Part shown: positions 20,158 to 63,428 of the stretch, one piece after another
How positions within the stretch are numbered: position 1 is the first letter of the stretch
How the letters are laid out: the number at the start of each line of letters is the position of its first letter
From: Candidatus Cloacimonadota bacterium
GTDB lineage: Bacteria; Cloacimonadota; Cloacimonadia; Cloacimonadales; Cloacimonadaceae
Assembly (NCBI GenBank): GCA_020532085.1
Contig: JAJBAV010000013.1
Span: 5,565-69,564 of the forward strand
DNA length: 64,000 nucleotides
Direction: 5' to 3'
The notes under the pieces: generated by a model
Seen by the model: the letters and a program-made list of their open reading frames with translations, nothing else
Told to the model about the DNA's origin: nothing
Database searches by the model: none
Program-made: the position numbers and the translations under genes

Positions 20158-20314
20158 CATTGACTCACACAATCTTATTATTGGCCTGCGCGTCGTTTCG
20201 GTGAGTCGCAGGAAGCAACAGAAGGCTGTGACCGAAATTCCTTGACGCATATATGTTCAATATTTAGGGAGTATCAAAGGAATAAATGCCAGGTTGAATT
20301 TCAAGGCAGGAAAC

Positions 20315-21955
20315 ATGAAAGTTACAAAGTTTGTTTTGGTTGTATTGCTACAGATCTGGTTTTGTGGTTTATCAGGCCAGAATCATCTGGACGTGATGGC
20401 AATTCTACAGGGTGAACCAAACACTTTAGGCATGGGGCGTGGCATGGCGGCGCTGGATTTCAACGGAGACGGAATCAAAGACCTAGCTGTTTTGCAGCGC
20501 AACAATCCGCGCTTTGAAGACATAGGAACCTATGATTATGGCAGGATTTTCTGTCTCTATGGCGGAACAGATTTCGATACAGAGGCAGACTTTGTTATCT
20601 ATGGCGCTCCGCATGATTACTTCAATTCTGGCAGTCTGAAAAACGCAGGTGACGTGAATGGCGATGGATTTGAAGACCTGACCGCGATCCGTCAGATCAA
20701 TGCTGGAACCATGGATGCGATATACCGGATCTGCGTCTATTTTGGCGGGGAGCAGCCTTCTACAACACCTGGGCTGCTGTTTGACCATCCCGCCTATTGG
20801 ATGCAGGGTCAGTATGTAGATTGGTCGGAAGTATTCGCCCTGGGCGATATTAACGGAGACGGTTTTGACGATCTGGGTTTGGTTACTAAGTGGAATAATC
20901 CAGACAAATTTAAACTCGACATCATGTTTGGTGGATCATATCAGCTCTATACTATCTATGAAACAACAACTGATATTATGGGATACGCTCGGATCAATGG
21001 AGTTGGCGATGTTAACTATGACGGTTTTGATGACTTCATCCTAGCATATGCCAATAATAGTAATCATGAAGATGTCGACGTTGATCTCTACTATGGCTGT
21101 CGGGACATCTCAATGTGTGAGGTGGTCAATCTGGTCTCAGATAGCAGTATCGATTATGCAGTAAAACCCCTAGCGGCGGGAGACGTCAACGGTGATGGAT
21201 ATGCAGACTTTTTAGGCAGGTTCATTCGTGAAGGGACTGATTATTATGGTGCTTTGTGGTTGGGCGGAGAAACGCTATTTCCGGTCTTTGACGTGGAACT
21301 GCGTCCGGATTATTTCGGTTTCGGGTGGGCAGATATTGGTTTTACCTTCGGTGACCTGAACGGGGATGGCAATGACGACCTGATCGGCTCTAAGTACACC
21401 GCCTACGCGGATGATGGAGCAGCGGTCATCTGGCTGGGTAAAAGGCATTTCAACGGCACGCATGACCTGTTGCTGCGGCGTCCTGCAAGCGTTGCCGTGT
21501 ATTCCAGCTTTGGCTATGCCATGGCGGCAGGAGATTTCAATGCCGATGGACTGGACGACTTGGCAATTAGCGCATCCCACCGCCCACCGGGACTATCCGA
21601 CACTCCCGGTGCCTTGATCATCTATGCTGGCAATACCGGATTAGTGGATACCACCGTCGGTGTGGATGACGATCTCAACTCTGCCATTGACGCACAAGAA
21701 AGGGTCAGTGTATTTCCCAATCCAGCAAGGGAAACAGTTACGCTCAGATTTGAAGGCGAGAAACTGCGAAAAAGCAAAAATAGAGAGATCAGGTTGTTTA
21801 ACATCAAAGGGCAGTTACTACAGGAATACTCAGACATAGCGGGCAATGATGAGTTCAAGATCACATTGAACCCCTTGCCAACAGGAGTTTACTTGCTTGA
21901 TGTGAGTGTGGATGCTATCAGTGTCGCCTCGACAAAACTACTAATTAGCAAATAA
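20315..21955 (+). CDS. FG-GAP/VCBS-repeat protein with T9SS C-terminal sorting domain (paralog 1)
   Basis: Signal peptide, repeated GDVNGDGFDD/GDFNADGLDD calcium-binding FG-GAP motifs, and a C-terminal FPNPA...LLDV...KLLISK T9SS-type CTD. Confidence 0.8.
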   Translation: MKVTKFVLVVLLQIWFCGLSGQNHLDVMAILQGEPNTLGMGRGMAALDFNGDGIKDLAVLQRNNPRFEDIGTYDYGRIFCLYGGTDFDTEADFVIYGAPHDYFNSGSLKNAGDVNGDGFEDLTAIRQINAGTMDAIYRICVYFGGEQPSTTPGLLFDHPAYWMQGQYVDWSEVFALGDINGDGFDDLGLVTKWNNPDKFKLDIMFGGSYQLYTIYETTTDIMGYARINGVGDVNYDGFDDFILAYANNSNHEDVDVDLYYGCRDISMCEVVNLVSDSSIDYAVKPLAAGDVNGDGYADFLGRFIREGTDYYGALWLGGETLFPVFDVELRPDYFGFGWADIGFTFGDLNGDGNDDLIGSKYTAYADDGAAVIWLGKRHFNGTHDLLLRRPASVAVYSSFGYAMAAGDFNADGLDDLAISASHRPPGLSDTPGALIIYAGNTGLVDTTVGVDDDLNSAIDAQERVSVFPNPARETVTLRFEGEKLRKSKNREIRLFNIKGQLLQEYSDIAGNDEFKITLNPLPTGVYLLDVSVDAISVASTKLLISK

Positions 21956-22011
21956 GGAGAGATTCATGTGCAATAAGATGTGTATGGCGGTAGTCATTTT
22001 CGCCAGGGGAT

Positions 22012-22449
22012 TTGGGTTACAGCATTTACAACATCCGGGGACAGGTAGTGTTTTCCGGCAAGCTCTCCGGGCAAACGAGGGAGCAGATCTTTGAGCTTCC
22101 TGCCGAGGCTTTGGAACGCATGCCCAGCGGTGTTTACCTGATTAGTTTGGAGAGGGGAAACAACACCATCGCCACTGCCATGCATCCGGCTGTGCATGCG
22201 CGGTTGCTGGATGTGGCTAAGAAACACAAGCTTCCCATCCAGATCGAGATCGCCCCGGGCCGCACCGGAACAGACGCCGACGCCATCCACGACCTCAAAG
22301 GAGGTGCCGCGATGGCCGTGGTCGGCATCCCCAACCGCTACATGCATTCGCCCAACGAAGTGATCTCGCTCAAAGACCTGGACGCCGCGGTGAAACTTAT
22401 CACGGAGTTCGTGCTCTCCCTGGGCGACAAATTCAAGCTGGAGCGCTGA
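22012..22449 (+). pseudogene. Chimeric remnant: T9SS CTD fragment fused to a duplicated 3' end of the M42 peptidase gene
   Basis: The first 56 aa match the CTD of the paralog at 22675-24279. From MHPAVH onward (22180) it is a near-identical copy of the last 90 codons of the M42 gene (19832-20101). Confidence 0.7.
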
Positions 22450-22674
22450 GCGAACCAGCCTAAACCGATAAATATCCAAGCCCGCTGAAGAGCCCTTTCG
22501 CGGGCTTGGCATTGACTCACACAATCTCATTATTGGCCTGCTCGTCATTCCGGCGAATCGCAGGAAGCAACAGAAGGCTGTGACCGAAATTCCTTGACGC
22601 ATATATGTTCAATTTTTAGGATGTACCAAAGAAACAAAAGATAGTCCGACAGTCATGAAATCGATGGAGGAACA

Positions 22675-24279
22675 ATGAGTAATATGCGCAGTGCAACTCT
22701 TTTGATCCCATTGCTATTGTCCATAACCCTCCTAAATGCAATAAACGATATGCCCGTCATCGCTGCCTTTCAGGGCGAACATCACAATTCTATGTACGGA
22801 TATTCAATGGTATCTCTGGATTTCAACCATGATGGATTAGATGATCTGGCAGTATGCTCTTTTTCTTACGGATATGAGTACGGTATCACACCGACAAGAG
22901 GTAAGATATATATCTATTATGGTGGAGTAGGTTTCAATTCCTCCACACCAGCCAGTATAACAATCGAAGGCACATATGCTAATATTGTGGGCAGACAGAT
23001 TAGAGGTATCTTTAAAGTCGGTGATATCAGTGGTGATGGCTTTGAAGATCTCTGCATGTATGTAGAAGACCACATATCCTGGAACGAGAGCTATAAGAAA
23101 CTGCTCTTTTTCTATGGTGGAACCACCAATCTGGAGAATCCCGATTATGTGCTCAATGTGTATGGAAGTGTATACACTTTTTTTAGGATATTACCCCTTG
23201 GCGATGTAAATGGAGACGGCTTAGGAGATATGGGGTTCTATTACCTGCACTCTCCTTCTTACCTGAATAGACTATCAATCATCTGGGGAGGATCATTTCA
23301 AGAACATGTAGTTTCTAATGGGGAAGCAAGTTATTCTTATTCATGTTCAATCCATGGTATCGGTGACATCAACAACGATGGCTACGCTGATTTTACCACG
23401 GCATTTGCCACCCCGTCTTCAGATCCCACCCACAATCTGATTCGGCTCTATTATGGCAATGCCGCCGGGAATACTGATAATCCAATCACACTCATCTATT
23501 GCCAGTATGGAGTATCCAGAGGCAGCAAGCCGCTGGGAGACATGAATGCCGATGGCTATGACGACTTCATGGGCTACATTACGGATGAGGGGATGCATGC
23601 CTGGCTGGGTGGAACCAATATCAACTACGCTGTACCTGATTTTGATATGGACCCACCCTGGTATGGCGGGGAGTTCCAACGCTCTTTGGAGCATGGTGAC
23701 TTTAATAACGACGGTTATGAAGACGCGGTTGGAGCGAGCTTTGGGAGCGGGTTCGCGGTTTGGCTAGGCAGGCAAAACGTAAATGGAACTGCTGACATGA
23801 TCAAGAACAATCCCGGATATGAGAACTACGGCTATAGTCTGGTAACCGGAGATTTCAATGCCGATGGTTATGACGATATAGCCATAGCCGCATCACATGA
23901 ATACGATCCCTGGCCAAGCGGTAACTTCAATGGATATGTATGGGTATTTGGAGGTAATGCCCAGCTTGAGGACACAACCGTGGCTAGCGATGATCAGGTT
24001 GCGCCTATACCGGAGGCATTCATCAGGGTTTTTCCTCAACCGGCAAGCAGCAAAGTAATAGTATCAGTCAAAAGCGAACAGGCAGGGGATTTGGGCTACA
24101 GCATTTATAATATCCGGGGACAGATAGTGTTTTCCGGCAAGCTCAATGGTAATAACAAAGAGCAGATCTTTGAGCTTCCGAACGAGGCTTGGGAACGCAT
24201 GCCCAGCGGTGTTTACCTGATTAGTTTGGAGAGGGGAAACAGCACCATCGCCACTGCCAGGCTGGTGGTGGCCAAGTGA
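22675..24279 (+). CDS. FG-GAP-repeat protein with T9SS C-terminal sorting domain (paralog 2)
   Basis: 534 aa. Signal peptide, GDISGDGFED/GDVNGDGLGD/GDINNDGYAD repeats, CTD ending RLVVAK. GGAGGA RBS. Confidence 0.8.
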   Translation: MSNMRSATLLIPLLLSITLLNAINDMPVIAAFQGEHHNSMYGYSMVSLDFNHDGLDDLAVCSFSYGYEYGITPTRGKIYIYYGGVGFNSSTPASITIEGTYANIVGRQIRGIFKVGDISGDGFEDLCMYVEDHISWNESYKKLLFFYGGTTNLENPDYVLNVYGSVYTFFRILPLGDVNGDGLGDMGFYYLHSPSYLNRLSIIWGGSFQEHVVSNGEASYSYSCSIHGIGDINNDGYADFTTAFATPSSDPTHNLIRLYYGNAAGNTDNPITLIYCQYGVSRGSKPLGDMNADGYDDFMGYITDEGMHAWLGGTNINYAVPDFDMDPPWYGGEFQRSLEHGDFNNDGYEDAVGASFGSGFAVWLGRQNVNGTADMIKNNPGYENYGYSLVTGDFNADGYDDIAIAASHEYDPWPSGNFNGYVWVFGGNAQLEDTTVASDDQVAPIPEAFIRVFPQPASSKVIVSVKSEQAGDLGYSIYNIRGQIVFSGKLNGNNKEQIFELPNEAWERMPSGVYLISLERGNSTIATARLVVAK

Positions 24280-24300
24280 TTTGAGAAAGGTGTGAAAGTC

Positions 24301-25902
24301 ATGATGCACTCTAAGTCAATCCGAGTTTGCATACTCTTGGCAGTGTGTATTTTTGTTTCCATACAGCTTTGGAGCATAAGCGACATGCCTCTCATGGCAG
24401 AATTTGCAGGAGAGCATCATTGCTCTAAGTTTGGTCATACTAATGTAAGTCTTGATTTCAATCATGATGGATACGATGATCTGATAGTGTGGTCATTTGC
24501 TTGGAATTACGATCCCAATGCAGGAGTCGTTGCGCTTGGGAAAGTAGATGTTTACTTCGGAGACCCCGGTTTTAGTTTCGCAACCCAGCCAATCCAGAGC
24601 TACGAAGGTTATTTTATTGATGGTTCTGGTACGGGAGCATACAGACGGGTATGGGAGCCATACAACTTTGGAGATCTGAACGGAGATGGTTATGATGATC
24701 TTGGCATAGAGGACATGATTCCTTTTTCAAGTAAGCGGTTACTGATCTTTAACAGCGGACCGGAAGCGAATATCCTGAATCCGGATCACATCATCGACCT
24801 GCCATATACAGATTTTTACTGGGATCGGCTGGGAGATGTAGATGGAGATCGTTATGATGATATCGGAGTTTATTATCGCCAACCTCCAGGAAACATTCGT
24901 CGGCAGATAATTATCTGGGGTGGCTCTTTTCAGTGGCAGACAGTTGATACCAGTCTCATTTATCCAGACCCGGGTTCGCATATCAACGGGATTGGCGACA
25001 TTAACAACGATGGGTTTTATGATATTTCAGTATCATATTGGGGTTGGGGGACTGATGAAACAAATGACAGATATATTTATTATGGGAACAGCCAAAGAGA
25101 ATTTGTAAACCCTATTGTGCTCTTTCAGTCACCATTTTTCTACACCGCATTGAGTAGAGCCCTGGGAGACCTGAATGATGATGGCTACCACGATTTTTTT
25201 GGTTGTGCAGATACTGAAGGGATGAAAATTTGGTTCGGCTCGGACAATTTCAGTTCCTTCCAGCCTCCCAACCTCCTATTGAATCCTATTTATTATGGTA
25301 ATTCCCTGGCAAAGGGTGTAAAGTTTGGTGATGTTAACGGAGATGGTTACGATGACGTAGTTGCGGCCAGCTACAGCCAAAGGCGTTTTGCGGTGTGTTT
25401 GGGTGGCAATAATATGAATGCTGAGGCCGACTTTACCAAATACAGAAACCAGTCATATTATGGCCATGGTGTGGCAGTAGGAGATTTTAACGCCGATGGC
25501 TATGATGATGTGGCAATAGGAGCTCCAGGTCAAGATCCTCAGCATGAAGGCTTCAATCCTGGTTATGTGTACGTGTATGCTGGCAATGCGCAAATGGTCA
25601 GCAATCTGGATGAAACGCTGCCTCCTTTGGATAATCACTTGCAAGTAAGTGTTTACCCCAATCCGGTAAGGTCATCGGAGTTTGTTACGCTCAGATATGA
25701 AGGCGAGTCATTGAGGAAAAGTAAACATCGTGAGATCAGGTTATTCAATATCAAGGGGCAGTTATTGCATGAATACTCCGATATTCAGGGTAAAGACGAG
25801 TTCAGATTCACGCTGAACCCCTTGCCAACAGGAGTTTACTTGCTTGATGTGAGTGTGGATGCTATCAGTGTCGCCTCGACAAAACTACTAATTAGCAAAT
25901 AA
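24301..25902 (+). CDS. FG-GAP-repeat protein with T9SS C-terminal sorting domain (paralog 3)
   Basis: Signal peptide, GDLNGDGYDD-type repeats, and a CTD whose last ~90 nt are identical to paralog 1. Confidence 0.8.
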   Translation: MMHSKSIRVCILLAVCIFVSIQLWSISDMPLMAEFAGEHHCSKFGHTNVSLDFNHDGYDDLIVWSFAWNYDPNAGVVALGKVDVYFGDPGFSFATQPIQSYEGYFIDGSGTGAYRRVWEPYNFGDLNGDGYDDLGIEDMIPFSSKRLLIFNSGPEANILNPDHIIDLPYTDFYWDRLGDVDGDRYDDIGVYYRQPPGNIRRQIIIWGGSFQWQTVDTSLIYPDPGSHINGIGDINNDGFYDISVSYWGWGTDETNDRYIYYGNSQREFVNPIVLFQSPFFYTALSRALGDLNDDGYHDFFGCADTEGMKIWFGSDNFSSFQPPNLLLNPIYYGNSLAKGVKFGDVNGDGYDDVVAASYSQRRFAVCLGGNNMNAEADFTKYRNQSYYGHGVAVGDFNADGYDDVAIGAPGQDPQHEGFNPGYVYVYAGNAQMVSNLDETLPPLDNHLQVSVYPNPVRSSEFVTLRYEGESLRKSKHREIRLFNIKGQLLHEYSDIQGKDEFRFTLNPLPTGVYLLDVSVDAISVASTKLLISK

Positions 25903-30338: not shown

Positions 30339-30428
30339 GGAGAGTTGCCGGAGCGGTTGAACGGGACGGTCTCGAAAACCGTTGTATCCTCACGGGTACC
30401 CAGGGTTCGAATCCCTGACTCTCCGCCA
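30339..30428 (+). tRNA. tRNA-Ser (anticodon CGA)
   Basis: GGAGAGT acceptor pairs with ACTCTCC. Anticodon stem ACGGT/ACCGT with loop CTCGAAA. Long variable arm, GGTTCGAATCC T-loop, encoded CCA. Confidence 0.9.
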
Positions 30429-49202: not shown

Positions 49203-50693
49203 ATGTACCACGCCACCACCCTTCAAGGCTTCGTCAGCGAAGCCAAGCCCACCCCATCCCGGAAGGTCGACCTCCCGGTCGACCAAAAGCCCACGGGGCT
49301 TTGCGAAGAAGAACCAGGATCGCCCCTCCGGAGAGAGGTTAACGAGGACGTTAACCTTCCGATGCCACCCACCCCACCCCGTCACCACGCCACCCCGCCA
49401 CCACCCCAAAACCCAATTCGTGCCATTCGTGTAATTCGTGGACAGCCCAACGCCGCCATCACCCGCCCCGTGACGGTCGGAATGGCCATCACAGCACCCG
49501 CCCTGATCGCCGAACGCGACGTCTCGTATGTGATGGATTGCGTGCGCGAGGGCCGCTTCGAGGGCAAAGACCTCAAGGCCCTCATCGTCACCATCCGCTC
49601 CCTGGCCGAACGCCAGGCCGGGATCGCCGCCGGGATGAAGAAGTCCCTGCCCTGGTTCAGCGGCTCCACCTTTCACCGCCGCCGCGGGAACGAGTTCTTC
49701 AAAGCCGCCTGGTTCATGGTTTTCGACCTCGACCACGTGCCGGATATCGAAGACTTGAAACACCAGGCCGTGGAGAAGCTGCCCTTCCTCCGCTACGCCT
49801 TCCAGAGCGTGCGCGACGGCGTGAAGCTTGTTGCCGAATTCGCCTCGCCCATTACCAAGGAAGACGATTTCCGGACCATCTGGAAGTACCTGGCCCTGCG
49901 CGTCGAGAAGGCTTTGGCCGTCAAGGTTGATTCCACTCCGGATCCCGCCCGCGCCTGTTTCCTTTCCTACGATCCGGAGTTGCTCACCAACCCCTCTTGC
50001 CGCCCCCTGGACCCGAAGAAGACGCTGCGGGAGGCCGAGGCCATCGCCGATCTGCTGCGGATTTTCCGCCCGGCCCCGCCCGTCATCCCAGCGCAGGCTG
50101 GGATCCAGAACCACCATCGCCCGGCCCCGCCCTGTCATTCCGGGGTGGGGGCTTCAGCCCCCGGGGCCCAGGAATCCAGACGGTCACACCAAAACAACTT
50201 CACATCCAAGTCGGGTTCGGCTCAGACGCAGTCTGGGTCGACACCCTCCGAGGACTATTCCCGCGAGGCCTGGATTCCGGGGCCCCTACCCCGGAATGAC
50301 AGAGCGGCTGTGCCTTCAGGTGAAACCGCCCGGGACGGTGTGACCCCCCTTCCCCGTGATGACGGGGCGGATGGATCTTCGGACCAACACCCCCCAATTC
50401 GTGGAATTCGTGTAATTCGTGGACAGAACCCCGACGACTACGAGAAGGCCTCAAAAGTAGTCCTAAAACTCGCCCAGAGGCAGATTCCCTACTCCGACTG
50501 GTATCGCATCGGTTTGGCCCTTTACGCGGGCTTTGGCGAAGCCGGAAGACCCCTCTGGGACCTCTTCCTTGCCAATCCCCACTACCGCGACACCCAGCGC
50601 GAACTCGACGCCAAGTGGAATTCCTTCCGCGGCGTGCGCGAGATCACCCTGGCCACGCTGTTCGAGATCGGAGGGCGTCATGGCTGCCAATAA
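49203..50693 (+). CDS. Primase-like protein (BT4734/VirE N-terminal-type domain + PriCT-like C-terminal domain), with repeat-derived inserts
   Basis: AGGAGG RBS. Central KKSLPWFSGSTFHRRRGNEFFKAAWFMVFDLDHV...VKLVAEF and C-terminal PYSDWYRIGLALYAGFGEAGRPLWDLF...AKWNSF. A family-1 repeat at 50132-50302 and IRxIRVIRGQ modules lie in frame. Confidence 0.65.
   Translation: MYHATTLQGFVSEAKPTPSRKVDLPVDQKPTGLCEEEPGSPLRREVNEDVNLPMPPTPPRHHATPPPPQNPIRAIRVIRGQPNAAITRPVTVGMAITAPALIAERDVSYVMDCVREGRFEGKDLKALIVTIRSLAERQAGIAAGMKKSLPWFSGSTFHRRRGNEFFKAAWFMVFDLDHVPDIEDLKHQAVEKLPFLRYAFQSVRDGVKLVAEFASPITKEDDFRTIWKYLALRVEKALAVKVDSTPDPARACFLSYDPELLTNPSCRPLDPKKTLREAEAIADLLRIFRPAPPVIPAQAGIQNHHRPAPPCHSGVGASAPGAQESRRSHQNNFTSKSGSAQTQSGSTPSEDYSREAWIPGPLPRNDRAAVPSGETARDGVTPLPRDDGADGSSDQHPPIRGIRVIRGQNPDDYEKASKVVLKLAQRQIPYSDWYRIGLALYAGFGEAGRPLWDLFLANPHYRDTQRELDAKWNSFRGVREITLATLFEIGGRHGCQ
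50132..50302. repeat. MITE/REP family 1 full copy inside the primase-like CDS
   Basis: CTGTCATTCCGGGGTGGGGGCTTCAGCCCCCGGGGCCCAGGAATCCAGAC...CCTGGATTCCGGGGCCCCTACCCCGGAATGACAG. By my boundaries it is 171 bp, a multiple of 3. Confidence 0.8.
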
Positions 50694-54999: not shown

Positions 55000-55089
55000 C
55001 CCCCAAAACTGTCGGACAAAAACTCGGTTAGGGCAAGAAATCATTAGATCTGAGAGTCAGGCTCAAACAGCGATGATCTGAGCAGTTTT

Positions 55090-56046
55090 TCAGTCCTTTG
55101 GAGGATTCTCCTCCATCCACTTTGAGGCCTTTGCCTGGATCTCCTCTCGCTTTTCTTTACCAAGTGTTTCGCTGATTCTATCTCTATTGTTTAATCCATC
55201 TTCGTTGCCCCCAGCAGCGGCCAAAAGATACCAATAATACGCCTCAGTATTACTTTTTTCCACGCCCTGCCCGTTTTCATAGCAGATTCCAAGGTTGTTT
55301 TGAGCGTAAGAATATCCCTGTTCCGCAGCAAGGCGATAATACTTTATTGCCTCACCTTGGTTCTGTACCAAGCCTTTGCCTTCTTCATATAGAATTGCTA
55401 TTGCATTCTGAGCATAGGCATCACCTTGATCTGCTGCCTTTTGATACCACTTGGCTGCTTCTTTGATGTCTTTTTCTACTCCTTCGCCGTTTTCATAACA
55501 CCAGCCTAAATTAACCTGGGAACTTGCAAAATTTTGGCTGGCAGCTTTTCTGAACCAAATCAGCGCTTCTCCCATATCTTTCTTTACTCCAAGGGCATCA
55601 CGATAACTGACACCCAGATTGTGCTGTGCAACAGCATTACCTCTTTCTGCAGCTTGGCGCGTCAATTCCAAGGCTTTTGAGTAGTCTTTTTTTACTCCAC
55701 GGCCTTCATAATACATATAGCCTAAATTTCTCAGTGCATCAGCGTTTCCTTGTTCAACTGCTAAACTTAACCACTTGAAGGCTTCACTATCGTTCTGAGG
55801 AGTACCATCCCCGAAATAATAGAGTTTTCCAAGCTGATACTGACCTGCCGCGTGACCAGATTCAGCCGCTTTTGTGAACAATTTCAGAGCTCGCGCATAA
55901 TCCTTCTTCTCGAGACTATCGTCAATACACTTCATGCCTTGCTGATAGTATTCCTCGCCTTTGGCCTTCTTGTTTTCCATCAAATCACATCCGATGAAAG
56001 AAAGAGCAACGCACAGCAAAACAAGAATCAAACTTAACTTTTTCAT
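55090..56046 (-). CDS. Sel1-repeat lipoprotein
   Basis: GGGAGG RBS, lipobox SFIGC, and seven tandem Sel1 repeats (A..W..KAA.QG.A.AQ..LG..Y..G.GV.KD...A). Confidence 0.8.
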   Translation of the reverse strand: MKKLSLILVLLCVALSFIGCDLMENKKAKGEEYYQQGMKCIDDSLEKKDYARALKLFTKAAESGHAAGQYQLGKLYYFGDGTPQNDSEAFKWLSLAVEQGNADALRNLGYMYYEGRGVKKDYSKALELTRQAAERGNAVAQHNLGVSYRDALGVKKDMGEALIWFRKAASQNFASSQVNLGWCYENGEGVEKDIKEAAKWYQKAADQGDAYAQNAIAILYEEGKGLVQNQGEAIKYYRLAAEQGYSYAQNNLGICYENGQGVEKSNTEAYYWYLLAAAGGNEDGLNNRDRISETLGKEKREEIQAKASKWMEENPPKD

Positions 56047-56437
56047 GTTTCCTCCCATAAACTCATCGTAAATATATGTATCTTCAACTCAGTTTATTTG
56101 TCAAGCGGATTCTGCCAACGCGGATTTGTAAGGTTTAAAGCTATGTGACAACGAAATCTGCAAATTGTGCAGCGAAAACTGCAAAACGGTCGCATCGTAG
56201 GACATCCTTACTCATCCTTACCTGGACGCTTTTAGGTGGTTTCTGACAGGATTTCTGAATATCGAACGATGCATAGCATTGGTTTGATGATAGTAATCCC
56301 ATTCTAGTTGATGCTGCGCTCAATACCCGGATAAATCGTGCTCGACACACTCACGTCTCTCTGATTCTATAAATTGAACACTTACGCGAGCAGCGTGTCT
56401 GAGTTTAAATCCAAAATCGGATTTAGCCTCTTGTACG

Positions 56438-57262
56438 CTAGTCATGTGATTCATTTAATATTTTTTTGCCTGCGATGAAAGAATCGTGAAATGTGTTACT
56501 AGCTTGCTTACTAATTGTATCATAAGAGATCGTATAGAAAAGGCAATTGGTTTTTCTTCGTTTTATGTACTTGAGAAACATACTTGCTGCCTTAGTTTTA
56601 AACCAAGATCTAGACTCAGATGGATATAGCTTGGAATTTGTCCACTGAAAAGCACCTACTAGATCTGCCATTTGTACTCCAATAGAGTACTCATCTTTGC
56701 AGAAAACAGGCTCTAAGATGTTTCCAAAATTCTTAATACAGTCTATTGTCCCATATCCAGTTACAACAGCACCCATCAAATTGTTATGCGATCCTGAATA
56801 CATCTGATACATATTTGAGTACGATTTATTGAGCCCCAAATCAATAATCGGAATAATGAAGTTTTTTTCTGCATAGGAGTTTAAGTAACATAGGTGATTA
56901 AACCACACATCGCCCAGATAACCCTCTTTCCCCTTTGGTATTACATTTGAAAAACTATGAGTTGAATGTACTCCGTGTATGAAAACAATTTCTGCATATG
57001 AATAAATTTTCTTGAGGAGGTAATCCCATACCTTGAATTTCTCATGGTCGTTCAACTCAGGGCAGAAATCACTTGAGTGATAACCTGGTAAATAGCGCAT
57101 TGGCCGTTGCCCCGTTCTTTCTTCATGCTTTTTTGCATAATTAGATAGAACCTCATTTCTAAGTCTAATGTATTGGGATGGTGTGATCAGAAATCCAGAT
57201 ATCTGAGAGTAACTTTTATCAGCGTTGAACGCTTCATCCGTGAACACCAGCAGTGATTTCAA
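56438..57262 (-). CDS. DUF3800-like protein
   Basis: 274 aa, TTG start. N-terminal LLVFTDEAF (DUF3800 proteins typically start with an I-D-E-S/A acidic motif) and C-terminal IGVQMADLVGAF (the conserved Q.aDl motif). Assignment by eye only. Confidence 0.5.
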   Translation of the reverse strand: MKSLLVFTDEAFNADKSYSQISGFLITPSQYIRLRNEVLSNYAKKHEERTGQRPMRYLPGYHSSDFCPELNDHEKFKVWDYLLKKIYSYAEIVFIHGVHSTHSFSNVIPKGKEGYLGDVWFNHLCYLNSYAEKNFIIPIIDLGLNKSYSNMYQMYSGSHNNLMGAVVTGYGTIDCIKNFGNILEPVFCKDEYSIGVQMADLVGAFQWTNSKLYPSESRSWFKTKAASMFLKYIKRRKTNCLFYTISYDTISKQASNTFHDSFIAGKKILNESHD

Positions 57263-57332
57263 GGATTATTTCCTGACCAATCATAATGTATCTGCATTGC
57301 TAATGACCTAAATCACAACAATCTTGATGATA

Positions 57333-59606
57333 TCATTTCTTAACAGTGGATGAGTCATATGATTGGTGATCTCTCAGGTAGATATCTATCATTTCCTGGT
57401 TACTTATGTATAAACTATGATCGTTGTCTTTGATTGACATCAGTCTGTTGTTAATTAGTTTAACGTCGTAATGCTTGCTGAGATCTTCTATACTGAATCT
57501 AAATTCTTGTTCTTCACCATTAATAAACCTTCTGCTTTTCATACGGGATACAAGCATAATCAGCTTGTCCTTATCTTTGTAGATATCCTCAATAAATGCC
57601 TTCCAGCTTCTTGAATCGTCCCAATCAACCCAGCAATTATAGATAAAGGGAAAATCTCTCAAACCGAAAAGTATGGAAGCATGTCTTGTAATCAATGAGA
57701 TTGCTTCCTTTTTAACTTCTTGTATTTCATCAGGTGTGACGAGAGGAACTACATATGGATCCTTTTTTCTATCATCGAGAAGTGAGTTAGTTAAATGTAC
57801 CGGACCGTATACACCAGTAGTTTCTTTTATCGCATTGATTATGGCCTTTAACCTATTCGGTTGCTCGATTTTCTCTAATACAAGATCAACCAGAAATCCT
57901 AAATACCATTTAGCATCGAAATCCAATGAGTCTTCCTGTATGTCAGGCGTAGTATCTGATAGATTAAAAGCCGTTAATAGAATAATATTTAAAGATGACT
58001 GAGTGTAATCTATTGATTTCTTTATCTCGGACATGAGACGTTTGATCAGCTTGACCAGTAGGTTGTCCCCAAGATGTCTTGTAAAAACATCAGTTACTGT
58101 ATCCAAGCTTTTACTTTGCAAAATTTCATGTATATCCGCAAGCATTATTCTATCACCAACGCTGAAAATATCCCATGTGAAGTATTTATCAAAATGATTG
58201 GGATGGCATACTCTCTGCTTATGATCCATTTCGTCCAAATCAACATATGGTGATCGATCGAAGTCATTCCGATATTTGCCAAGTTCCGGGAACATTCTCC
58301 ATACGAGTTTTTGGATAATGTTAGCGTTTGTAGATGTGGATAATACGTCTTCAGCTTGTTTGTTGATATCCTTGTTTTCTTCATTTTTTGCGGTTTCATC
58401 GATAACAATTTGACCCGGAGGATTGCTACCTGTATAGAAGTATTTGTGATTCCTGATATAACGATGATAGCTTGGGGAAAAGTATTTAATAGCCTCAATG
58501 ACCGTAAAATCGTGTATGCTGACATTAAGAAATCCATTAACAACAAACTTGGGTATGTTTAATCCAATTAAGTTCAGCACTCCTTTAACATCACGAAGGT
58601 TGTGAAACAGATCAAAGAATCCATCACGAATCATAAATCCCCAATGCGTCATATCTTCGTGATATTGTTTTTGTATATTCGTGATATTGTGACCTTTAAC
58701 AATCTCGTCAAACTCATAATTAAACAACTCTTCCAACTGACCCTCTCTAATGAGAGGTATGTCAATCCATAACTGCACGATCTTTTTTAAATATTCATGT
58801 CCATCTACGCCGTAATCCGCAACTGAAAGACATTTCTGTACTATCTCACTGTCACAAGCCATAACAAAAACGCAGTTTGGTAACTCGGCACAAATTCTTA
58901 ACAAACGGAGTACACTTTTTATCTCAGCGACCTCAAGCCGATCTATATCGTCTAAAATAACAATGATTCGAGAATCAGGTTTATCCAGTGCTTTGGATAT
59001 CTTATCGTTTAATTTTGAAACCGGGCTCCCCACTCTGACAATAAATGCAATGAATTCAATAATCAGATATATTGAAGCAACGGCGCCAAGTCCTATGATG
59101 ATCCATCCTGCCCAAATCGGAGGATATGGAATGATTCTAAAAATGTTTAAGGAAACAAAGAACGCAAATATGCTGATGACAAATCCCACAATTTGGATCG
59201 TATTTAACAGCGGTTGTTGAGATAAAGTTTTTCCATAGACCAAAAAGTCCTGCGAAAGCCTATATGTGTTATGATGAGAACTAGTAAGGTTAGCTGCTAG
59301 CTGTTCAAAAAAAGCTGGAATCAGATCATCCGAGCTGTTTGTGTAAAACCAGGGGTTGAATTCAAAAACTAGCGTCCCACCTCTTCTATGTGATTTCTTA
59401 TCTCTTGCCTTTGTCTTGTCGTTCAGATAGGACTTCAATAAATTTATAAAAGAAGTTTTACCGCAGCCCCATGGGCCATTTAATAGAATGCTCATGCTAT
59501 GAGGGTGTTTCCAGGTTAGTATCAAATCAGCAAATTTTCTGGCTGTTTCTTTCCTACCCAAAGTATCTTGCCCAGGTCCTGTTATTGGGGTATCAAAGAT
59601 ATCCAT
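57333..59606 (-). CDS. KAP-family P-loop NTPase with intramolecular transmembrane insert
   Basis: 757 aa. Walker A LLNGPWGCGKTS, a hydrophobic insert (IVGFVISIFAFFVSLNIF..WAGWIIIGLGAVASIYLIIEFIAFIV) before Walker B IIVILDDIDRLE, and a long helical C-terminal region. Confidence 0.8.
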   Translation of the reverse strand: MDIFDTPITGPGQDTLGRKETARKFADLILTWKHPHSMSILLNGPWGCGKTSFINLLKSYLNDKTKARDKKSHRRGGTLVFEFNPWFYTNSSDDLIPAFFEQLAANLTSSHHNTYRLSQDFLVYGKTLSQQPLLNTIQIVGFVISIFAFFVSLNIFRIIPYPPIWAGWIIIGLGAVASIYLIIEFIAFIVRVGSPVSKLNDKISKALDKPDSRIIVILDDIDRLEVAEIKSVLRLLRICAELPNCVFVMACDSEIVQKCLSVADYGVDGHEYLKKIVQLWIDIPLIREGQLEELFNYEFDEIVKGHNITNIQKQYHEDMTHWGFMIRDGFFDLFHNLRDVKGVLNLIGLNIPKFVVNGFLNVSIHDFTVIEAIKYFSPSYHRYIRNHKYFYTGSNPPGQIVIDETAKNEENKDINKQAEDVLSTSTNANIIQKLVWRMFPELGKYRNDFDRSPYVDLDEMDHKQRVCHPNHFDKYFTWDIFSVGDRIMLADIHEILQSKSLDTVTDVFTRHLGDNLLVKLIKRLMSEIKKSIDYTQSSLNIILLTAFNLSDTTPDIQEDSLDFDAKWYLGFLVDLVLEKIEQPNRLKAIINAIKETTGVYGPVHLTNSLLDDRKKDPYVVPLVTPDEIQEVKKEAISLITRHASILFGLRDFPFIYNCWVDWDDSRSWKAFIEDIYKDKDKLIMLVSRMKSRRFINGEEQEFRFSIEDLSKHYDVKLINNRLMSIKDNDHSLYISNQEMIDIYLRDHQSYDSSTVKK

Positions 59607-59672
59607 ATTGTCCTCTAAGAGATAATCAACTTGATGAAATGATAGTAATCGTCTGAATAGACTTTTTCATTT

Positions 59673-60139
59673 TCATTGCCTGTTGTAGCGAGGTTGGAAT
59701 ATTCCGATCAGAAATGATTCCACCACGTAAAGCCTATCCTCATCTATTTCTTTATCGTGAGCTGAAATGACCAAAACATCGTAGGTTTCTTGTAAGGTTT
59801 TAACCCAATCTTTTCGAAATCTCATGGCTTGTTGGCTGTTTATAACTTTAATCCCTTTATTTTCTTAAAAAACTACCTTTGGAAACATGACTCCGATTTG
59901 AGAAGGAAGTGCTTTTGAATCCTTTGATATATAGAGCTTTCATTATTGTAAGTTAGGTGTGTACCACCAACTCCTATGTAATCTATCTTGCCGCTTAATC
60001 GATCTATGAAGAAATACCACCCTGATTTCCGCATAAGTTGTGGTATAAACAAGCGATACTTAATCTCATTGACTTCATTATCTAGATATTCCCTTATCTC
60101 TGTTATCTGATTCAGTTGTAACCAGTTTAGGTGATACAT
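59673..60139 (-). pseudogene. GIY-YIG-like nuclease gene split by a stop codon and frameshift
   Basis: The 88-aa ORF (59873-60139) carries GWYFF...KIDYIGVGG...RIQKH. A 50-aa ORF (59673-59825, different frame) carries VVESFLIGIFQPRYN. The motif order matches GIY-YIG cores. Confidence 0.4.
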
Positions 60140-60287
60140 CTCAGTTTCCTGCTGGTAAACAAGACAATGCAGAACATCCAGGATAGTATTGTTGAAATTA
60201 TCCGGGTTGATTCATAATCTGAGATATCAAAATATCCACGCAGCATACTATATCCATTATCCAACACATGAAAAAAACCTTAGTTTC

Positions 60288-60317
60288 ATAACAACGTTAT
60301 GACATCATATTTGTCAA
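60288..60317 (-). promoter_or_regulatory. Possible promoter for the GIY-YIG-like/KAP/DUF3800 gene string
   Basis: On the minus strand, TTGACA-N18-TGTTAT. The -10 region overlaps the small palindrome CATAACgttGTTATG. Confidence 0.25.
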
Positions 60318-60401
60318 GAAATATTTATTCTAAATGAAGAGATGCTTGATCTGAATACCTCAACAAAAGACCATAATCATGTTACTCTATTCATTCAATC
60401 A

Positions 60402-61256
60402 TCACTCCATCCACGCGAACAGCCGGCCGGTTTTGATCCGGGTTTTCAGCCAGGCGCAAAGCGGGGGATCCTCCTTGTGGGCGGCGCGGAAGAGGCGCCA
60501 GAGCTGGGTCATGAGGTTGTGATAGGCCTTGTCGCGTTCGGGGCGTGAGTTTTTGATCTCGCCGCCGGGTTTGCCGATGCGCTTGAGTTCTTTCTCCAGG
60601 AAATCCAGTTCCCAGGCGAGGTCCGGGTTGTTGTTTCCGGCGGCGATCTGGGCGCGAAGCTGGTTTCGGCGCTTCAGGTAGGCGGCCAGGGCGCGGGTGT
60701 CGGCCAGGGGGATGGGATCGAGGTCCAGGGCGTGAAGCTGGCCGGGCGTGGGGTATTCGCCGCGGCTGAGGCAGACCAGTTCCTGGGGACTGTAAACCTG
60801 GCCGGGGGTGGAACGCAGTACGGCCACGATTTTGGCGCCGCCGAGGTGGGCGTGGCGGCGGAGGAAGGCTTCCGGGGACTGACCACGAATTTCACTAATG
60901 TTTTGTCCACGAATTACACCAATTTCACGAATTGAGGCGTTTTGGTCCGAGGATGGAGCCGCTGTGTCATTCCGGGAAGCGTGCGCCAGCACGTTGGGAC
61001 CCGGAATCCAGGCCTTCGGGGTAATGCCCCCAGAGGGTGTCGCCACAGACGCAGTCTGTATCGACCCCGCCTTGTCTGTGATGTTGTTTTGATTTGACCG
61101 TCTGGATTCCGGGGCCCCTTCGGCACCCCACGAACTCGCTGCGCTCGTCCGCGAGGACCCCGCCTCCCCGGAATGACACAGTGGGTCTGGGTGGTGGGTG
61201 GATCTGGCTTTATCGACGGGGATCTTACCTCGTTCAAGAATGCCCTTGTACATCAT
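60402..61256 (-). CDS. Hypothetical protein with repeat-derived N-terminal half
   Basis: 284 aa, AAGGAG RBS. The N-terminal ~130 aa are encoded by a family-1 repeat plus an IRxIxVIRGQ module. The C-terminal ~150 aa are unique, basic and helical. Confidence 0.55.
   Translation of the reverse strand: MMYKGILERGKIPVDKARSTHHPDPLCHSGEAGSSRTSAASSWGAEGAPESRRSNQNNITDKAGSIQTASVATPSGGITPKAWIPGPNVLAHASRNDTAAPSSDQNASIREIGVIRGQNISEIRGQSPEAFLRRHAHLGGAKIVAVLRSTPGQVYSPQELVCLSRGEYPTPGQLHALDLDPIPLADTRALAAYLKRRNQLRAQIAAGNNNPDLAWELDFLEKELKRIGKPGGEIKNSRPERDKAYHNLMTQLWRLFRAAHKEDPPLCAWLKTRIKTGRLFAWME
60965..61178. repeat. MITE/REP family 1 full copy inside the 60402-61256 CDS
   Basis: TGTCATTCCGGGAAGCGTGCGCCAGCACG...GGAATCCAGGCC...GACGCAGTCTGTATCGAC...GTCTGGATTCCGGGGCC...CCCCGGAATGACA. 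Confidence 0.8.
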
Positions 61257-62544: not shown

Positions 62545-62912
62545 AGAACTGGATTCCGGGGCCCCTTCCCCGGAATGACAGATCGGGCCTGCACTTCCGT
62601 GTGGGCCTTTTTTTAACACAGAGACACAGAGATGGGGAGACACAGAGACAGAGAGAAGGAGAGAAATGGGGGAAATGTTTTTTAACACAGAGAAAAGCAG
62701 AGGAAACGTAAAGGGACAGAGAGATAATAGAACGCTGATGACGCGGATCAATATGATTCACGCGGATTATTTCTCTGTGGCTCTGTGGTAAAGTCCTTTT
62801 CTCTTTTTCTCTGTGTCTCCGTGCCTCTGTGTTAAAAGGTTTGGCTATTCCCGCATGGCCTGGATTCCTGGGCCCCAGGGGCTGAAGCCCCTTCCCCGGA
62901 ATGACAGCAAGG
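62545..62912. repeat. Family-1 end modules plus CACAGAG-type short repeats
   Basis: CTGGATTCCGGGGCCCCTTCCCCGGAATGACAG (about 62549-62581) and GGCTATTCCCGCATGGCCTGGATTCCTGGGCCCCAGGGGCTGAAGCCCCTTCCCCGGAATGACAGC (about 62843-62908). TTTTAACACAGAG units lie between them. Confidence 0.75.
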
Positions 62913-63428
62913 CTGGGCCTTCAGAACAAACAACGAAGCTATAAAGTGACACCCCAAATGTCATATAGCCATCACTGTGACAAAGAGGCATAAGCCTTTA
63001 TCTGGTGCAGAGATGCTTAGGACTGCTTTCGGAAAGATGTCACAGTGGTTTTGGACTTCTTTGGACTGGTTTGTGACAGCTTTGTGTCAAATATGGACTG
63101 ATTTCAGACTGGTTTCGGAAATGCCTGAATCTCAACAAAATAGACCAGTTCGGAATACTCGCAGTGTGTGTAGAACGGTTGGTGTCAGAGATTTATAAGA
63201 GGTCTGAAATCAGTCTATCATTATACTTAACTAGTCCCTAATCAAAAATGGATCAACCGGATGATTCCACTCTACAGAGGCATTCTAATCAACAATAATC
63301 TGGGCTTTTTTTAAATCATAGGCTATTAACATCTTGACAGATACTTGTTTCCTTTTAGTGTTGTTAGATACGTACATTTTAATTTGTATCTTACCAGACG
63401 GTTCGATAGAGCCAATAAGGAGGATTTA

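What the first reader, a model, noticed from the sequence alone, without database searches (positions are those of the whole stretch)
56438..59606. KAP-family membrane NTPase + DUF3800-like gene pair in AT-rich cargo DNA: candidate uncharacterised defence cassette
Seen in the sequence: a 757-aa ORF has a Walker A (GPWGCGKTS) and a Walker B (ILDDIDR) separated by a strongly hydrophobic segment that looks like two to three TM helices. That split is the diagnostic architecture of KAP NTPases. About 70 nt downstream on the same strand is a 274-aa ORF with an N-terminal FTDEAF and a C-terminal QMADLV motif, reminiscent of DUF3800. About 66 nt upstream is a broken GIY-YIG-like nuclease gene. All three sit in DNA visibly more AT-rich than the surrounding chromosome, next to mobile-element replication genes. 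Established knowledge: KAP NTPases are STAND-related P-loop proteins with a membrane insert, and NTPase-plus-effector pairs on mobile islands are a common anti-phage layout. Inference: the pair may act as an infection sensor (KAP) plus an effector or accessory protein. I do not know of a validated defence system defined by this pair.
Basis: partly seen in the sequence, partly recalled or inferred. Interest (0 to 1): 0.75.

Follow-up and report, generated by a model that had tools for sequence, protein, structure and literature searches.

The report
PifA-like membrane ATPase plus DUF3800 nuclease
A 4-kb AT-rich mobile cassette in a Cloacimonetes genome carries a membrane-anchored relative of the known anti-phage protein PifA followed by a DUF3800 (RNase H-like) gene; this pairing has formed independently in several phyla but is optional for both partners.

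Summary
A 757-aa KAP NTPase (57333-59606, minus strand) has Walker A and B motifs split by a two-helix membrane hairpin. A 274-aa gene (56438-57262) follows 70 nt downstream, and a broken small gene lies 66 nt upstream, all in 37% GC DNA against ~58% around it.

The KAP gene is not uncharacterised. It matches the PADLOC PifA profile end to end (E 7e-64), so it is a distant, membrane-inserted member of a known defence family.

The partner is a divergent DUF3800 with an RNase H-like fold and intact DE...D...QxxD residues.

The trio recurs as an 88%-identical 3.9-kb cassette with different flanks in another metagenome. Among 80 distant PifA-like KAP loci, 3 carry an unrelated DUF3800 gene directly adjacent and co-oriented, and none carries one elsewhere in the flanks (p=7e-4). 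However, 96% of those KAPs lack DUF3800 and about half have no close co-oriented neighbour. The partner's own closest relatives sit at the 3' ends of Type I and Type IIG restriction operons.

Best reading: an autonomous PifA-type sensor/effector with a facultative, co-transcribed nuclease add-on. It is a new variant of a known kind, of moderate interest.

The parts
56197..60211 (-). Mobile ~4-kb AT-rich cassette (37% GC): small upstream gene, KAP, DUF3800 and a 3' noncoding tail
   Evidence: blastn: window 60211-56291 matches L008 763-4685 at 87.6% nt identity, with short further matches down to 56197. The flanks differ between the two contigs.
57333..59606 (-). PifA-family KAP P-loop NTPase, 757 aa
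   Evidence: Pfam KAP_NTPase E 1.7e-38. PADLOC PifA E 6.9e-64, residues 4-731 against profile positions 7-705 of 720. 25% identity to F-plasmid PifA over residues 4-284. dN/dS 0.28 against L008. AlphaFold2 model pLDDT 79.9.
59451..59477 (-). Walker A motif (GPWGCGKTS, residues 44-52)
   Evidence: Regex match. G44, W46, G47, G49, K50 and S52 are invariant in the 19-sequence alignment A4.
59016..59213 (-). Hydrophobic two-helix hairpin inserted in the P-loop domain (residues 132-197)
   Evidence: Hydropathy peaks 2.26 and 2.37. Model helices 134-152 and 164-193. The same insert is present in 21 of 77 PifA-like KAPs and absent from F PifA.
58938..58964 (-). Walker B motif (IVILDDIDR, residues 215-223)
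   Evidence: Regex match. D219, D220, D222 and R223 are invariant in A4.
57263..57332 (-). 70-nt KAP-DUF3800 spacer with an AGGA Shine-Dalgarno-like motif 8-9 nt before the TTG start; no terminator
   Evidence: Sequence. The terminator scan finds none on the minus strand in this spacer. The spacing is the same in L008.
56438..57262 (-). Divergent DUF3800 protein (RNase H-like fold), 274 aa, TTG start
   Evidence: Pfam DUF3800 18.5 bits for the window copy; homologues P0002 and P0003 score 24.1 and 25.1 bits. 25 of 28 family members hit the model. Foldseek top hit is a phage DUF3800 protein, E 1.5e-6, followed by RNase H proteins. dN/dS 0.28.
57233..57238 (-). DUF3800 N-terminal catalytic-type D9-E10
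   Evidence: D9 is invariant across 28 divergent relatives.
56663..56674 (-). DUF3800 QxxD motif (Q197...D200)
   Evidence: Q197 is invariant and D200 is at least 90% conserved. D141 (window 56840-56842) is also invariant.
59673..60139 (-). Pseudogene of a small (about 155-aa) protein, split into an 88-aa and a 50-aa ORF; GIY-YIG-like motifs only
   Evidence: Nonsense change plus 1-nt deletion relative to the intact L008 679-1302 gene. No Pfam, NCBIfam or PDB sequence hit. The ESFLIGIFQPRYN motif matches UvrC with pairwise E 0.005.
56197..56437 (-). Conserved 3' noncoding tail of the cassette; no evidence for a structured RNA
   Evidence: Found only in L008 by nhmmer. Folding z-score -1.8. No Rfam DUF3800 motif. 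A weak terminator-like hairpin lies just beyond it at 56172-56158.

Best explanation
A horizontally mobile ~4-kb cassette encodes two co-transcribed defence modules.

Module 1 is a PifA-family KAP NTPase. A two-helix hairpin inserted between Walker A and Walker B anchors it in the membrane, and its all-alpha C-terminal half probably serves as the sensor. By analogy with F-plasmid PifA and with the validated single-gene KAP defence proteins, it would sense a phage or other invader protein and then use NTP binding or hydrolysis, probably through oligomerisation, to block infection at the membrane. For PifA the outcome is membrane depolarisation and nucleotide leakage. This module is expected to work on its own.

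Module 2 is a DUF3800 RNase H-like nuclease with an intact D-E...D...QxxD residue set. It is a portable add-on rather than an obligate partner. The same subfamily rides at the 3' end of Type I and Type IIG restriction operons, and other DUF3800 subfamilies have independently docked beside other KAP genes. It most likely adds a nucleic-acid-degrading activity that cooperates with, or backs up, whichever sensor it is expressed with.

Shown here: the family assignments, the motifs, the cassette's mobility, purifying selection on both genes, and recurrent adjacency. Inferred: the anti-phage function, the trigger, the membrane mechanism, the nuclease activity, and any cooperation between the two proteins.
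For: KAP gene:
- Full-length PifA profile match and Pfam KAP.
- Walker motifs intact and invariant in the family.
- TM hairpin.
- Structural neighbours are the RADAR defence ATPase RdrA and ORC/Cdc6 AAA+ oligomers.
- Literature: PifA causes membrane depolarisation in response to T7 gp1.2/gp10 (PMC13001434, PMC8594841). Single-gene KAP proteins defend, and need both Walker B and the C-terminal region (PMC13552941).
- Relatives are mostly standalone: 41 of 80 have no close co-oriented downstream ORF, and P0009, P0010 and P0019 are isolated genes.
- Relatives lie among defence genes.

DUF3800 gene:
- Family and fold support, and an RNase H-like fold in the literature (PMC7736814, PMC10910872).
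- Purifying selection, omega 0.28.

Linkage:
- 70-nt gap, no terminator, Shine-Dalgarno-like motif.
- The same trio is present in L008.
- 3 of 47 closely adjacent co-oriented neighbours of distant KAPs are DUF3800, against 0 of 463 other flank ORFs; Fisher p=7.4e-4.
- The KAP-linked DUF3800s are mutually unalignable, and their KAPs sit in four separate clades, so the pairing formed repeatedly.

Portability of the partner:
- The nearest relatives follow hsdR with a 4-nt overlap (L001), hsdR (L005), or a 1383-aa MTase/Eco57I protein (L009).
Against: - No experiment exists on this protein pair.
- The window KAP is only 25% identical to F PifA, and BLASTP aligns only the NTPase half. F PifA lacks the TM insert.
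- PifA's primary role as an immunity protein has itself been questioned (PMC8594841).
- One validated KAP protein (EF_KAP) was reported not to act by abortive infection (PMC13552941), so the membrane-leak mechanism may not transfer.
- The adjacency statistic rests on only three events and on ORF calls, not curated genes.
- Cooperation between the two proteins is pure inference. The data fit simple co-residence almost as well.
- The DUF3800 model is only moderately confident (pLDDT 69.8), and its PDB matches to RNase HI are weak.
Confidence: 0.45

Rival explanations
1. Two independent defence genes that merely share an island and a transcript. The KAP and the DUF3800 each act alone, and their adjacency reflects the way defence islands accrete small genes at operon ends.
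For: - 77 of 80 KAP relatives lack DUF3800.
- The partner's closest relatives are attached to R-M operons instead.
- Sister KAPs L026 and L034 have DUF3800 versus Fic in the downstream slot.
- One partner homologue is an orphan among housekeeping genes.
Against: - All three DUF3800 genes found in about 1 Mb of KAP flanks are immediately adjacent and co-oriented, and none lies elsewhere in the flanks (p=7.4e-4).
- The pairing arose at least four times from different DUF3800 subfamilies.
- The orphan copy has lost its catalytic N-terminus, and one R-M-linked copy is a pseudogene. This hints that the gene decays when it is not held in a working context.
Confidence: 0.3
2. An obligate two-component system. 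The KAP is only the infection sensor, and DUF3800 is the nuclease effector it must activate.
For: - Tight co-oriented spacing without a terminator.
- The pair is conserved with purifying selection on both genes while the upstream gene has decayed.
- Recurrent adjacency.
- DUF3800 serves as the effector-like partner in type VII retrons and is linked to a Cas12a2 branch (PMC7736814, PMC10910872).
Against: - 96% of PifA-like KAPs have no DUF3800, and about half have no operonic neighbour at all.
- F PifA and the 2026 KAP proteins work as single genes.
- The KAP keeps a ~400-residue C-terminal region, which was itself required for defence in the validated KAP protein EF_KAP (PMC13552941).
- The partner subfamily is found with non-KAP systems.
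Confidence: 0.12
3. Not immunity. The cassette serves the mobile element itself: for example, the KAP acts in membrane-associated plasmid or element maintenance, and the RNase H-like protein acts in primer removal or RNA processing for the nearby primase/helicase replicon.
For: - Primase and DUF3987 genes lie 4-7 kb away.
- PifA's immune role has been questioned (PMC8594841).
- DUF3800 genes often associate with structured ncRNAs of unknown role (PMC5737381).
Against: - The cassette moves independently of the replication genes: L008 has different flanks.
- Four unrelated surface or lipoprotein genes lie in between.
- Homologues of both genes sit among restriction, Abi, GmrSD and TIR genes rather than replication genes.
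- No DUF3800 RNA motif is present here.
Confidence: 0.08

Closest known systems
PifA of the E. coli F plasmid (phage T7 exclusion; PADLOC system 'PifA')
   Same: KAP P-loop NTPase of similar size (757 vs 741 aa). End-to-end match to the PifA profile (214.6 bits). Conserved Walker A and B motifs and EYLKKI(V/I)Q motif. Carried on mobile DNA.
   Different: Only 25% identity, and BLASTP aligns only the N-terminal 280 residues. Authentic PifA scores 963 bits on the same profile. The window protein has a two-helix hydrophobic insert that F PifA lacks. No PifC repressor lies upstream. F pifA has no DUF3800 neighbour.
Single-gene KAP NTPase defence proteins (EF_KAP and three gut-metagenome KAPs; PLoS Biol 2026, PMC13552941)
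   Same: A KAP NTPase with a TM helix inside the NTPase domain, fused to a large C-terminal region without known domains. In those proteins, defence needs both Walker B and the C-terminal region.
   Different: I did not have those sequences to compare directly. They are single-gene systems found beside small serine recombinases. This one carries a co-transcribed DUF3800 gene.
DUF3800 (Pfam PF12686) proteins of type VII retrons and of a Cas12a2 sub-branch
   Same: The same domain family and an RNase H-like fold. An accessory gene placed next to a larger defence enzyme.
   Different: No reverse transcriptase, msr/msd RNA, Cas gene or CRISPR array nearby. No PADLOC model hit. The QxxD glutamine is retained here, whereas the retron-linked clade lacks it (PMC7736814). 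None of the eleven DUF3800 RNA motifs is present.
Qat system (QatA is a KAP-type ATPase)
   Same: Partial QatA profile matches (E 1.7e-11 in PADLOC, 7.5e-8 in NCBIfam).
   Different: The matches cover only about 90-100 residues and fall far below the NCBIfam cutoff (31.5 against 600 bits). No QatB, QatC or QatD genes are present.
RADAR ATPase RdrA
   Same: Best PDB fold matches for the KAP model (E 1.4e-4, probability 1.0). Both are large defence ATPases that probably oligomerise.
   Different: TM-scores are only about 0.23, so the resemblance is at the domain level. No RdrB adenosine deaminase is present. RdrA has no membrane insert.

Membership tests
KAP P-loop NTPase (Pfam PF07693) | Profile match above the gathering threshold | tested here: met
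   133 bits against a cutoff of 20, residues 18-347 on profile positions 1-286 of 293.
KAP P-loop NTPase (Pfam PF07693) | Walker A and Walker B motifs with transmembrane helices inserted between them | tested here: met
   Walker A starts at residue 44 and Walker B at 215. Hydrophobic segments at 132-161 and 163-197. Model helices 134-152 and 164-193.
PifA (F-plasmid T7 exclusion; PADLOC PifA) | Full-length match to the PifA profile | tested here: met
   PDLC02361 E 6.9e-64, residues 4-731 on profile positions 7-705 of 720. Other distant relatives score 218-305 bits and F PifA scores 963 bits.
PifA (F-plasmid T7 exclusion; PADLOC PifA) | Pairwise similarity to authentic PifA over the whole protein | tested here: not met
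   BLASTP gives 25% identity over residues 4-284 only, and the C-terminal half is not aligned.
PifA (F-plasmid T7 exclusion; PADLOC PifA) | pifC repressor gene immediately upstream (the pif operon) | tested here: not met
   On F, pifC (362 aa) abuts pifA. Here the upstream gene is an unrelated ~155-aa pseudogene, and BLASTP against PifC gives E 99.
PifA (F-plasmid T7 exclusion; PADLOC PifA) | Abortive infection with membrane depolarisation triggered by phage gp1.2/gp10-type proteins | not testable with these tools
   Known from the literature only (PMC13001434, PMC8594841).
DUF3800 (Pfam PF12686) | Single-sequence profile score above the gathering threshold | tested here: not met
   The window copy scores 18.5 bits against a cutoff of 21, E 0.0035, but it covers profile positions 2-142 of 149.
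DUF3800 (Pfam PF12686) | Family-level link to the profile | tested here: met
   The 64% and 55% identical homologues score 24.1 and 25.1 bits. 25 of 28 members reached by a profile search hit DUF3800, best E 1.2e-8.
DUF3800 (Pfam PF12686) | N-terminal DE motif and C-terminal QxxD motif | tested here: met
   D9-E10 and Q197-x-x-D200 are present. D9, D141 and Q197 are invariant and D200 is at least 90% conserved across 28 sequences.
DUF3800 (Pfam PF12686) | RNase H-like fold | tested here: met
   The model (pTM 0.75) best matches a phage DUF3800 protein (E 1.5e-6, TM 0.53/0.59), followed by many phage RNase H proteins. PDB matches to RNase HI are weak: probability at most 0.75 and no E below 1e-3.
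DUF3800-associated ncRNA motifs (Rfam DUF3800-I to XI) | One of the motifs lies next to the gene | tested here: not met
   No match at gathering score in the window, and none at E<=5 in 55000-60500. The 3' tail folds no better than shuffled sequence, z -1.8.
Type VII retron | Reverse transcriptase and msr/msd RNA adjacent to the DUF3800 gene | tested here: not met
   No RT domain in any neighbouring ORF and no retron RNA in Rfam.
Qat system | QatA at equivalog score plus the QatB, QatC and QatD genes | tested here: not met
   NCBIfam QatA scores 31.5 bits against a cutoff of 600. Neighbouring genes are unrelated.
GIY-YIG nuclease (upstream pseudogene) | Profile or structure-database sequence match to a GIY-YIG domain | tested here: not met
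   The intact L008 orthologue gives no Pfam hit at E<=10, no NCBIfam hit and no PDB sequence hit.
GIY-YIG nuclease (upstream pseudogene) | Ordered GIY...YIG...R...E...N hallmark residues | tested here: inconclusive
   GWYFF, DYIGVGG, YQRIQKH and ESFLIGIFQPRYN are visible in order. Only the last block aligns to UvrC by BLASTP, with pairwise E 0.005 (UvrC sequence recalled from memory).

The most novel reading that the evidence does not exclude
DUF3800 is a portable RNase H-like effector that plugs into many unrelated invader sensors: KAP/PifA-type membrane ATPases, Type I and Type IIG restriction enzymes, retron reverse transcriptases and Cas12a2. The TM-insert KAP plus DUF3800 would then be a genuine, so far undescribed two-gene system, in which a membrane-anchored NTPase senses infection at the envelope and licenses a nuclease against incoming or replicating nucleic acid.
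Probability: 0.3. Interest if true: 0.65.

Novelty: new variant of a known kind. Interest (0 to 1): 0.45.

Why it matters
KAP NTPases were proposed as immunity proteins twenty years ago, and only in 2026 were members other than PifA shown to defend. How they sense and what they do is still unknown.

DUF3800 is a widespread orphan domain. It keeps appearing beside defence enzymes (retrons, Cas12a2 and, shown here, Type I and Type IIG R-M and KAP genes) and beside eleven unexplained RNA motifs.

A compact, naturally mobile cassette that pairs the two, with intact catalytic residues and a decayed third gene, is a convenient test case. It could show whether DUF3800 is a general-purpose add-on nuclease for immune sensors, and what a membrane-inserted PifA relative does.

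If the two genes prove independent, the finding is an ordinary defence-island fragment containing a known system.

Tried and rejected
- My first HMM, built from the partner's own subfamily (A3), found DUF3800 next to only 1 of 80 KAPs. Reading the neighbour sequences showed that it missed canonical DUF3800 proteins. Pfam confirmed L053 and L026, so the early conclusion of 'no recurrence' was wrong and I dropped it.
- Two related-loci runs with broad alignments failed for lack of conserved stretches. They were repeated with narrower alignments.
- The metagenome scan for the partner returned only loci already in hand.
- No DUF3800 turned up in 30 viral KAP loci.
- tblastn of the KAP protein against plasmids did not reach F PifA. 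The F pif region was fetched by accession instead.
- ncRNA hypothesis for the 3' tail: no Rfam hit, folding z-score -1.8, no homologues beyond L008. Rejected.
- GIY-YIG assignment: Pfam, NCBIfam, PHROGs and a PDB sequence search all came back negative.
- Idea that AT-rich islands in this genome are all defence cargo: the 20-26 kb island encodes FG-GAP/T9SS surface proteins. Rejected.
- The PDB fold search of the DUF3800 model gave no significant hit. The viral library was informative.


Full report
OBSERVATION. The window is from a Candidatus Cloacimonetes MAG contig. Both proteins are deposited there as 'hypothetical' (LHW45_05085 and LHW45_05080). On the minus strand there is a 757-aa ORF (57333..59606) and, 70 nt downstream, a 274-aa ORF with a TTG start (56438..57262). 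The larger protein has Walker A GPWGCGKT starting at residue 44 and Walker B IVILDDIDR starting at 215. Between them are two strongly hydrophobic stretches, 132-161 and 163-197. An AlphaFold2 model (pLDDT 79.9, pTM 0.69) renders them as a hairpin of two long helices, 134-152 and 164-193, followed by an all-alpha C-terminal half. The smaller protein carries FTDEAF (residues 7-12) and QMADLV (197-202). The cassette is 37.0% GC against 58-59% for most of the window. Upstream, a 50-aa ORF ends 66 nt before the KAP start and an 88-aa ORF precedes it.

WHAT THE KAP GENE IS. Pfam KAP_NTPase matches at 133 bits against a cutoff of 20. The PADLOC PifA model matches from residue 4 to 731, against profile positions 7-705 of 720, with E 6.9e-64. 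QatA and PDC-S20 give only partial, much weaker hits. I fetched the authentic F-plasmid pif region. BLASTP between the window protein and F PifA gives 25% identity over residues 4-284 (E 1e-19) and nothing for the C-terminal half. On the PifA profile, F PifA scores 963 bits, the window protein 215 bits, and other distant relatives 218-305 bits. The protein is therefore a remote member of the PifA-like branch of KAP NTPases. One visible difference is the hydrophobic insert. 21 of 77 PifA-like KAPs have it, with Walker A-B spacing of about 173 residues against about 125 without it. F PifA does not have it, in line with the statement in PMC13001434 that PifA lacks TM helices. The model's best PDB neighbours are the RADAR ATPase RdrA and ORC/Cdc6/RFC AAA+ proteins. 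These have high probability but TM-scores of only about 0.2-0.26, so the match is at the domain level.

WHAT THE PARTNER IS. The window copy scores 18.5 bits on Pfam DUF3800, just under the cutoff of 21, but aligns to profile positions 2-142 of 149. Its 64% and 55% identical homologues pass at 24.1 and 25.1 bits. A profile search of 1.84 billion representatives found only 50 clusters at E<=1e-3 and 5 at E<=1e-30, so the subfamily is rare. Of 28 aligned members, 25 hit DUF3800. The only invariant columns are D9, D141 and Q197, with K75 and D200 at 90% or more. That is the DE...QxxD signature of the family plus a central aspartate, as expected for an RNase H-like carboxylate site. The AlphaFold2 model (pLDDT 69.8, pTM 0.75) has no significant PDB match; the only coherent group is RNase HI at probability 0.75 or lower. 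In the viral structure library its top hit is a phage 'DUF3800 domain-containing protein' (E 1.5e-6, probability 1.00, TM 0.53/0.59), followed by a run of phage RNase H proteins. This agrees with published models of DUF3800 as an RNase H-like fold (PMC7736814, PMC10910872). None of the eleven DUF3800-associated RNA motifs (PMC5737381) is present. The conserved 3' tail shows no significant structure.

THE UPSTREAM GENE. A metagenomic contig (L008) carries the same three genes with the same 66-nt and 70-nt gaps, and its upstream gene is intact. A DNA alignment shows that the window copy has a GAG->TAG change and a 1-nt deletion. No profile or PDB sequence search recognises the intact protein. 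GIY-YIG-like blocks can be read by eye. I treat GIY-YIG as an unconfirmed lead. The gene is unrelated to PifC.

A MOBILE CASSETTE UNDER SELECTION. Window 60211-56291 matches L008 763-4685 at 87.6% identity, and the flanks are unrelated. dN/dS is 0.28 for both KAP and DUF3800, so both are maintained as proteins while the third gene has decayed here. There is no terminator in the 70-nt spacer, and an AGGA motif sits 8-9 nt before the conserved TTG start. Co-transcription is likely.

IS THE PAIR A UNIT? The evidence points both ways. Against an obligate unit:
- The partner's nearest relatives are not next to KAP genes. P0002 (64% identity) overlaps the stop codon of a Type I hsdR gene by 4 nt and is followed by a Ser/Thr kinase.
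- The P0004 locus (58% identity) also follows hsdR, but it is a pseudogene with an in-frame stop and a frameshift.
- P0105 (35% identity) follows an SNF2 helicase and a 1383-aa MTase/Eco57I enzyme.
- P0005 (44% identity) is an orphan that has lost the N-terminal DE motif.
- Of 80 genome loci with PifA-like KAPs (22-29% identity, many phyla), 41 have no co-oriented ORF of at least 80 aa within 200 nt downstream, and the neighbours that exist fall into 74 clusters out of 77 sequences.
- Three further metagenomic relatives are isolated genes, and 30 viral-contig relatives have no DUF3800.
- F pifA has no such neighbour.

For a real association:
- My first, subfamily-specific HMM understated the link. 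Pfam confirms canonical DUF3800 genes 44 nt downstream of the KAP in L053 (Nitrospirae, 57.9 bits), 104 nt downstream in L026 (Treponema, 31.1 bits) and 78 nt upstream in L061 (Marinobacter, 24.1 bits).
- A broadened HMM, a motif screen and a Pfam check of every motif-positive flank ORF found no other DUF3800 among 510 non-KAP ORFs of at least 150 aa.
- That gives 3 of 47 closely adjacent co-oriented neighbours against 0 of 463 others, Fisher p=7.4e-4.
- The four KAP-linked DUF3800 proteins are mutually unalignable by BLAST, and their KAPs lie in four separate clades. The juxtaposition therefore arose repeatedly.
- L026's sister L034 has a Fic gene in the same slot and GmrSD upstream, which shows that the slot is exchangeable.
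- Four of the five DUF3800-linked KAPs have the TM insert.

CONTEXT. Neighbours of KAP relatives include HsdM/HsdS, Type III and Type IIG R-M, GmrSD, AbiEii, Fic, an AAA_15/AAA_21 OLD-like ATPase and a CAP12/Pycsar TIR protein. These are typical defence islands. In the window itself the cassette sits beside Sel1, RDD and lipoprotein genes at 43% GC. A primase and a DUF3987 protein lie 4-7 kb away.

MECHANISM AND VERDICT. The best-supported reading is a PifA-type, membrane-anchored NTPase that can act alone, plus a facultative DUF3800 nuclease add-on expressed from the same transcript.
- PifA is known to depolarise the membrane and leak nucleotides when it senses T7 gp1.2 or gp10 (PMC13001434, PMC8594841).
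- Single-gene KAP proteins defend in a manner that depends on Walker B and on the C-terminal region, and at least one does so without abortive infection (PMC13552941).

Which of these outcomes applies here cannot be told from sequence. Whether DUF3800 cooperates with the KAP or merely travels with it is unresolved; I put cooperation slightly ahead because of the repeated, strictly adjacent pairing. No paper in the library links KAP with DUF3800. The KAP gene is a new member of a known defence family. The recurrent KAP-DUF3800 arrangement, and the wider habit of this DUF3800 subfamily of sitting at the 3' end of restriction operons, is a new variant worth a bench test, but it is not a categorically new system.

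Noticed in passing
window 58617-59612 (KAP codons ~1-330) vs L008: The NTPase and TM half of the KAP gene is only 68-77% nt identical to L008, while the rest of the cassette is 85-98% identical. dS is 1.03 against 0.19, with dN/dS about 0.2 in both halves. This looks like a recombination patch from a diverged allele, and it is in the enzymatic half rather than the presumed sensor half.
   Followed up: partly
window 49425, 50406, 50953 (+) and 60879, 60903 (-); also 50127-50330, 60959-61210, 62549-62931: The heptamer-repeat motif ATTCGTGTAATTCGTGGACAG has 5 copies where none is expected by chance. The copies are in opposite orientation on the two sides of the AT-rich 51-60.9 kb region. A ~200-bp GC-rich repeat has copies on both sides as well. 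Some copies lie inside the 'primase' ORF 49203-50693. These could be iterons, element ends or a dispersed repeat family.
   Followed up: partly
L001 3649-4473; L005 7714-8394; L009 8001-8819: The partner's DUF3800 subfamily sits at the 3' end of restriction operons. It overlaps the Type I hsdR stop codon by 4 nt and is followed by a Ser/Thr kinase (L001). It follows hsdR as a pseudogene (L005). It follows an SNF2 helicase plus a 1383-aa MTase/Eco57I enzyme (L009).
   Followed up: partly
L086 5046-5807, L087 2095-2856, L091 5046-5807 (Collinsella): A CAP12/Pycsar-type TIR-domain gene lies 25 nt upstream of, and co-oriented with, a 794-aa PifA-like KAP. This is another candidate KAP partner, although all three loci come from one genus.
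   Followed up: no
L026 vs L034 (Treponema): Closely related KAP genes have different genes in the downstream slot: DUF3800 in L026, Fic in L034. L034 also has a GmrSD gene upstream.
   Followed up: partly
window 20294-25902: The other AT-rich island (44-50% GC) holds three tandem paralogues with FG-GAP repeats and a T9SS C-terminal sorting domain. This is surface-protein cargo, not defence.
   Followed up: partly
L124 237-1643: A large serine recombinase (Resolvase + Recombinase domains) lies divergently next to a standalone PifA-like KAP (P0010). PMC13552941 reports small serine recombinases as markers of defence genes, including KAPs.
   Followed up: no
window 30339-30425: A single tRNA gene is the only Rfam family at gathering score in the whole window. 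I did not examine it as a possible integration site.
   Followed up: no
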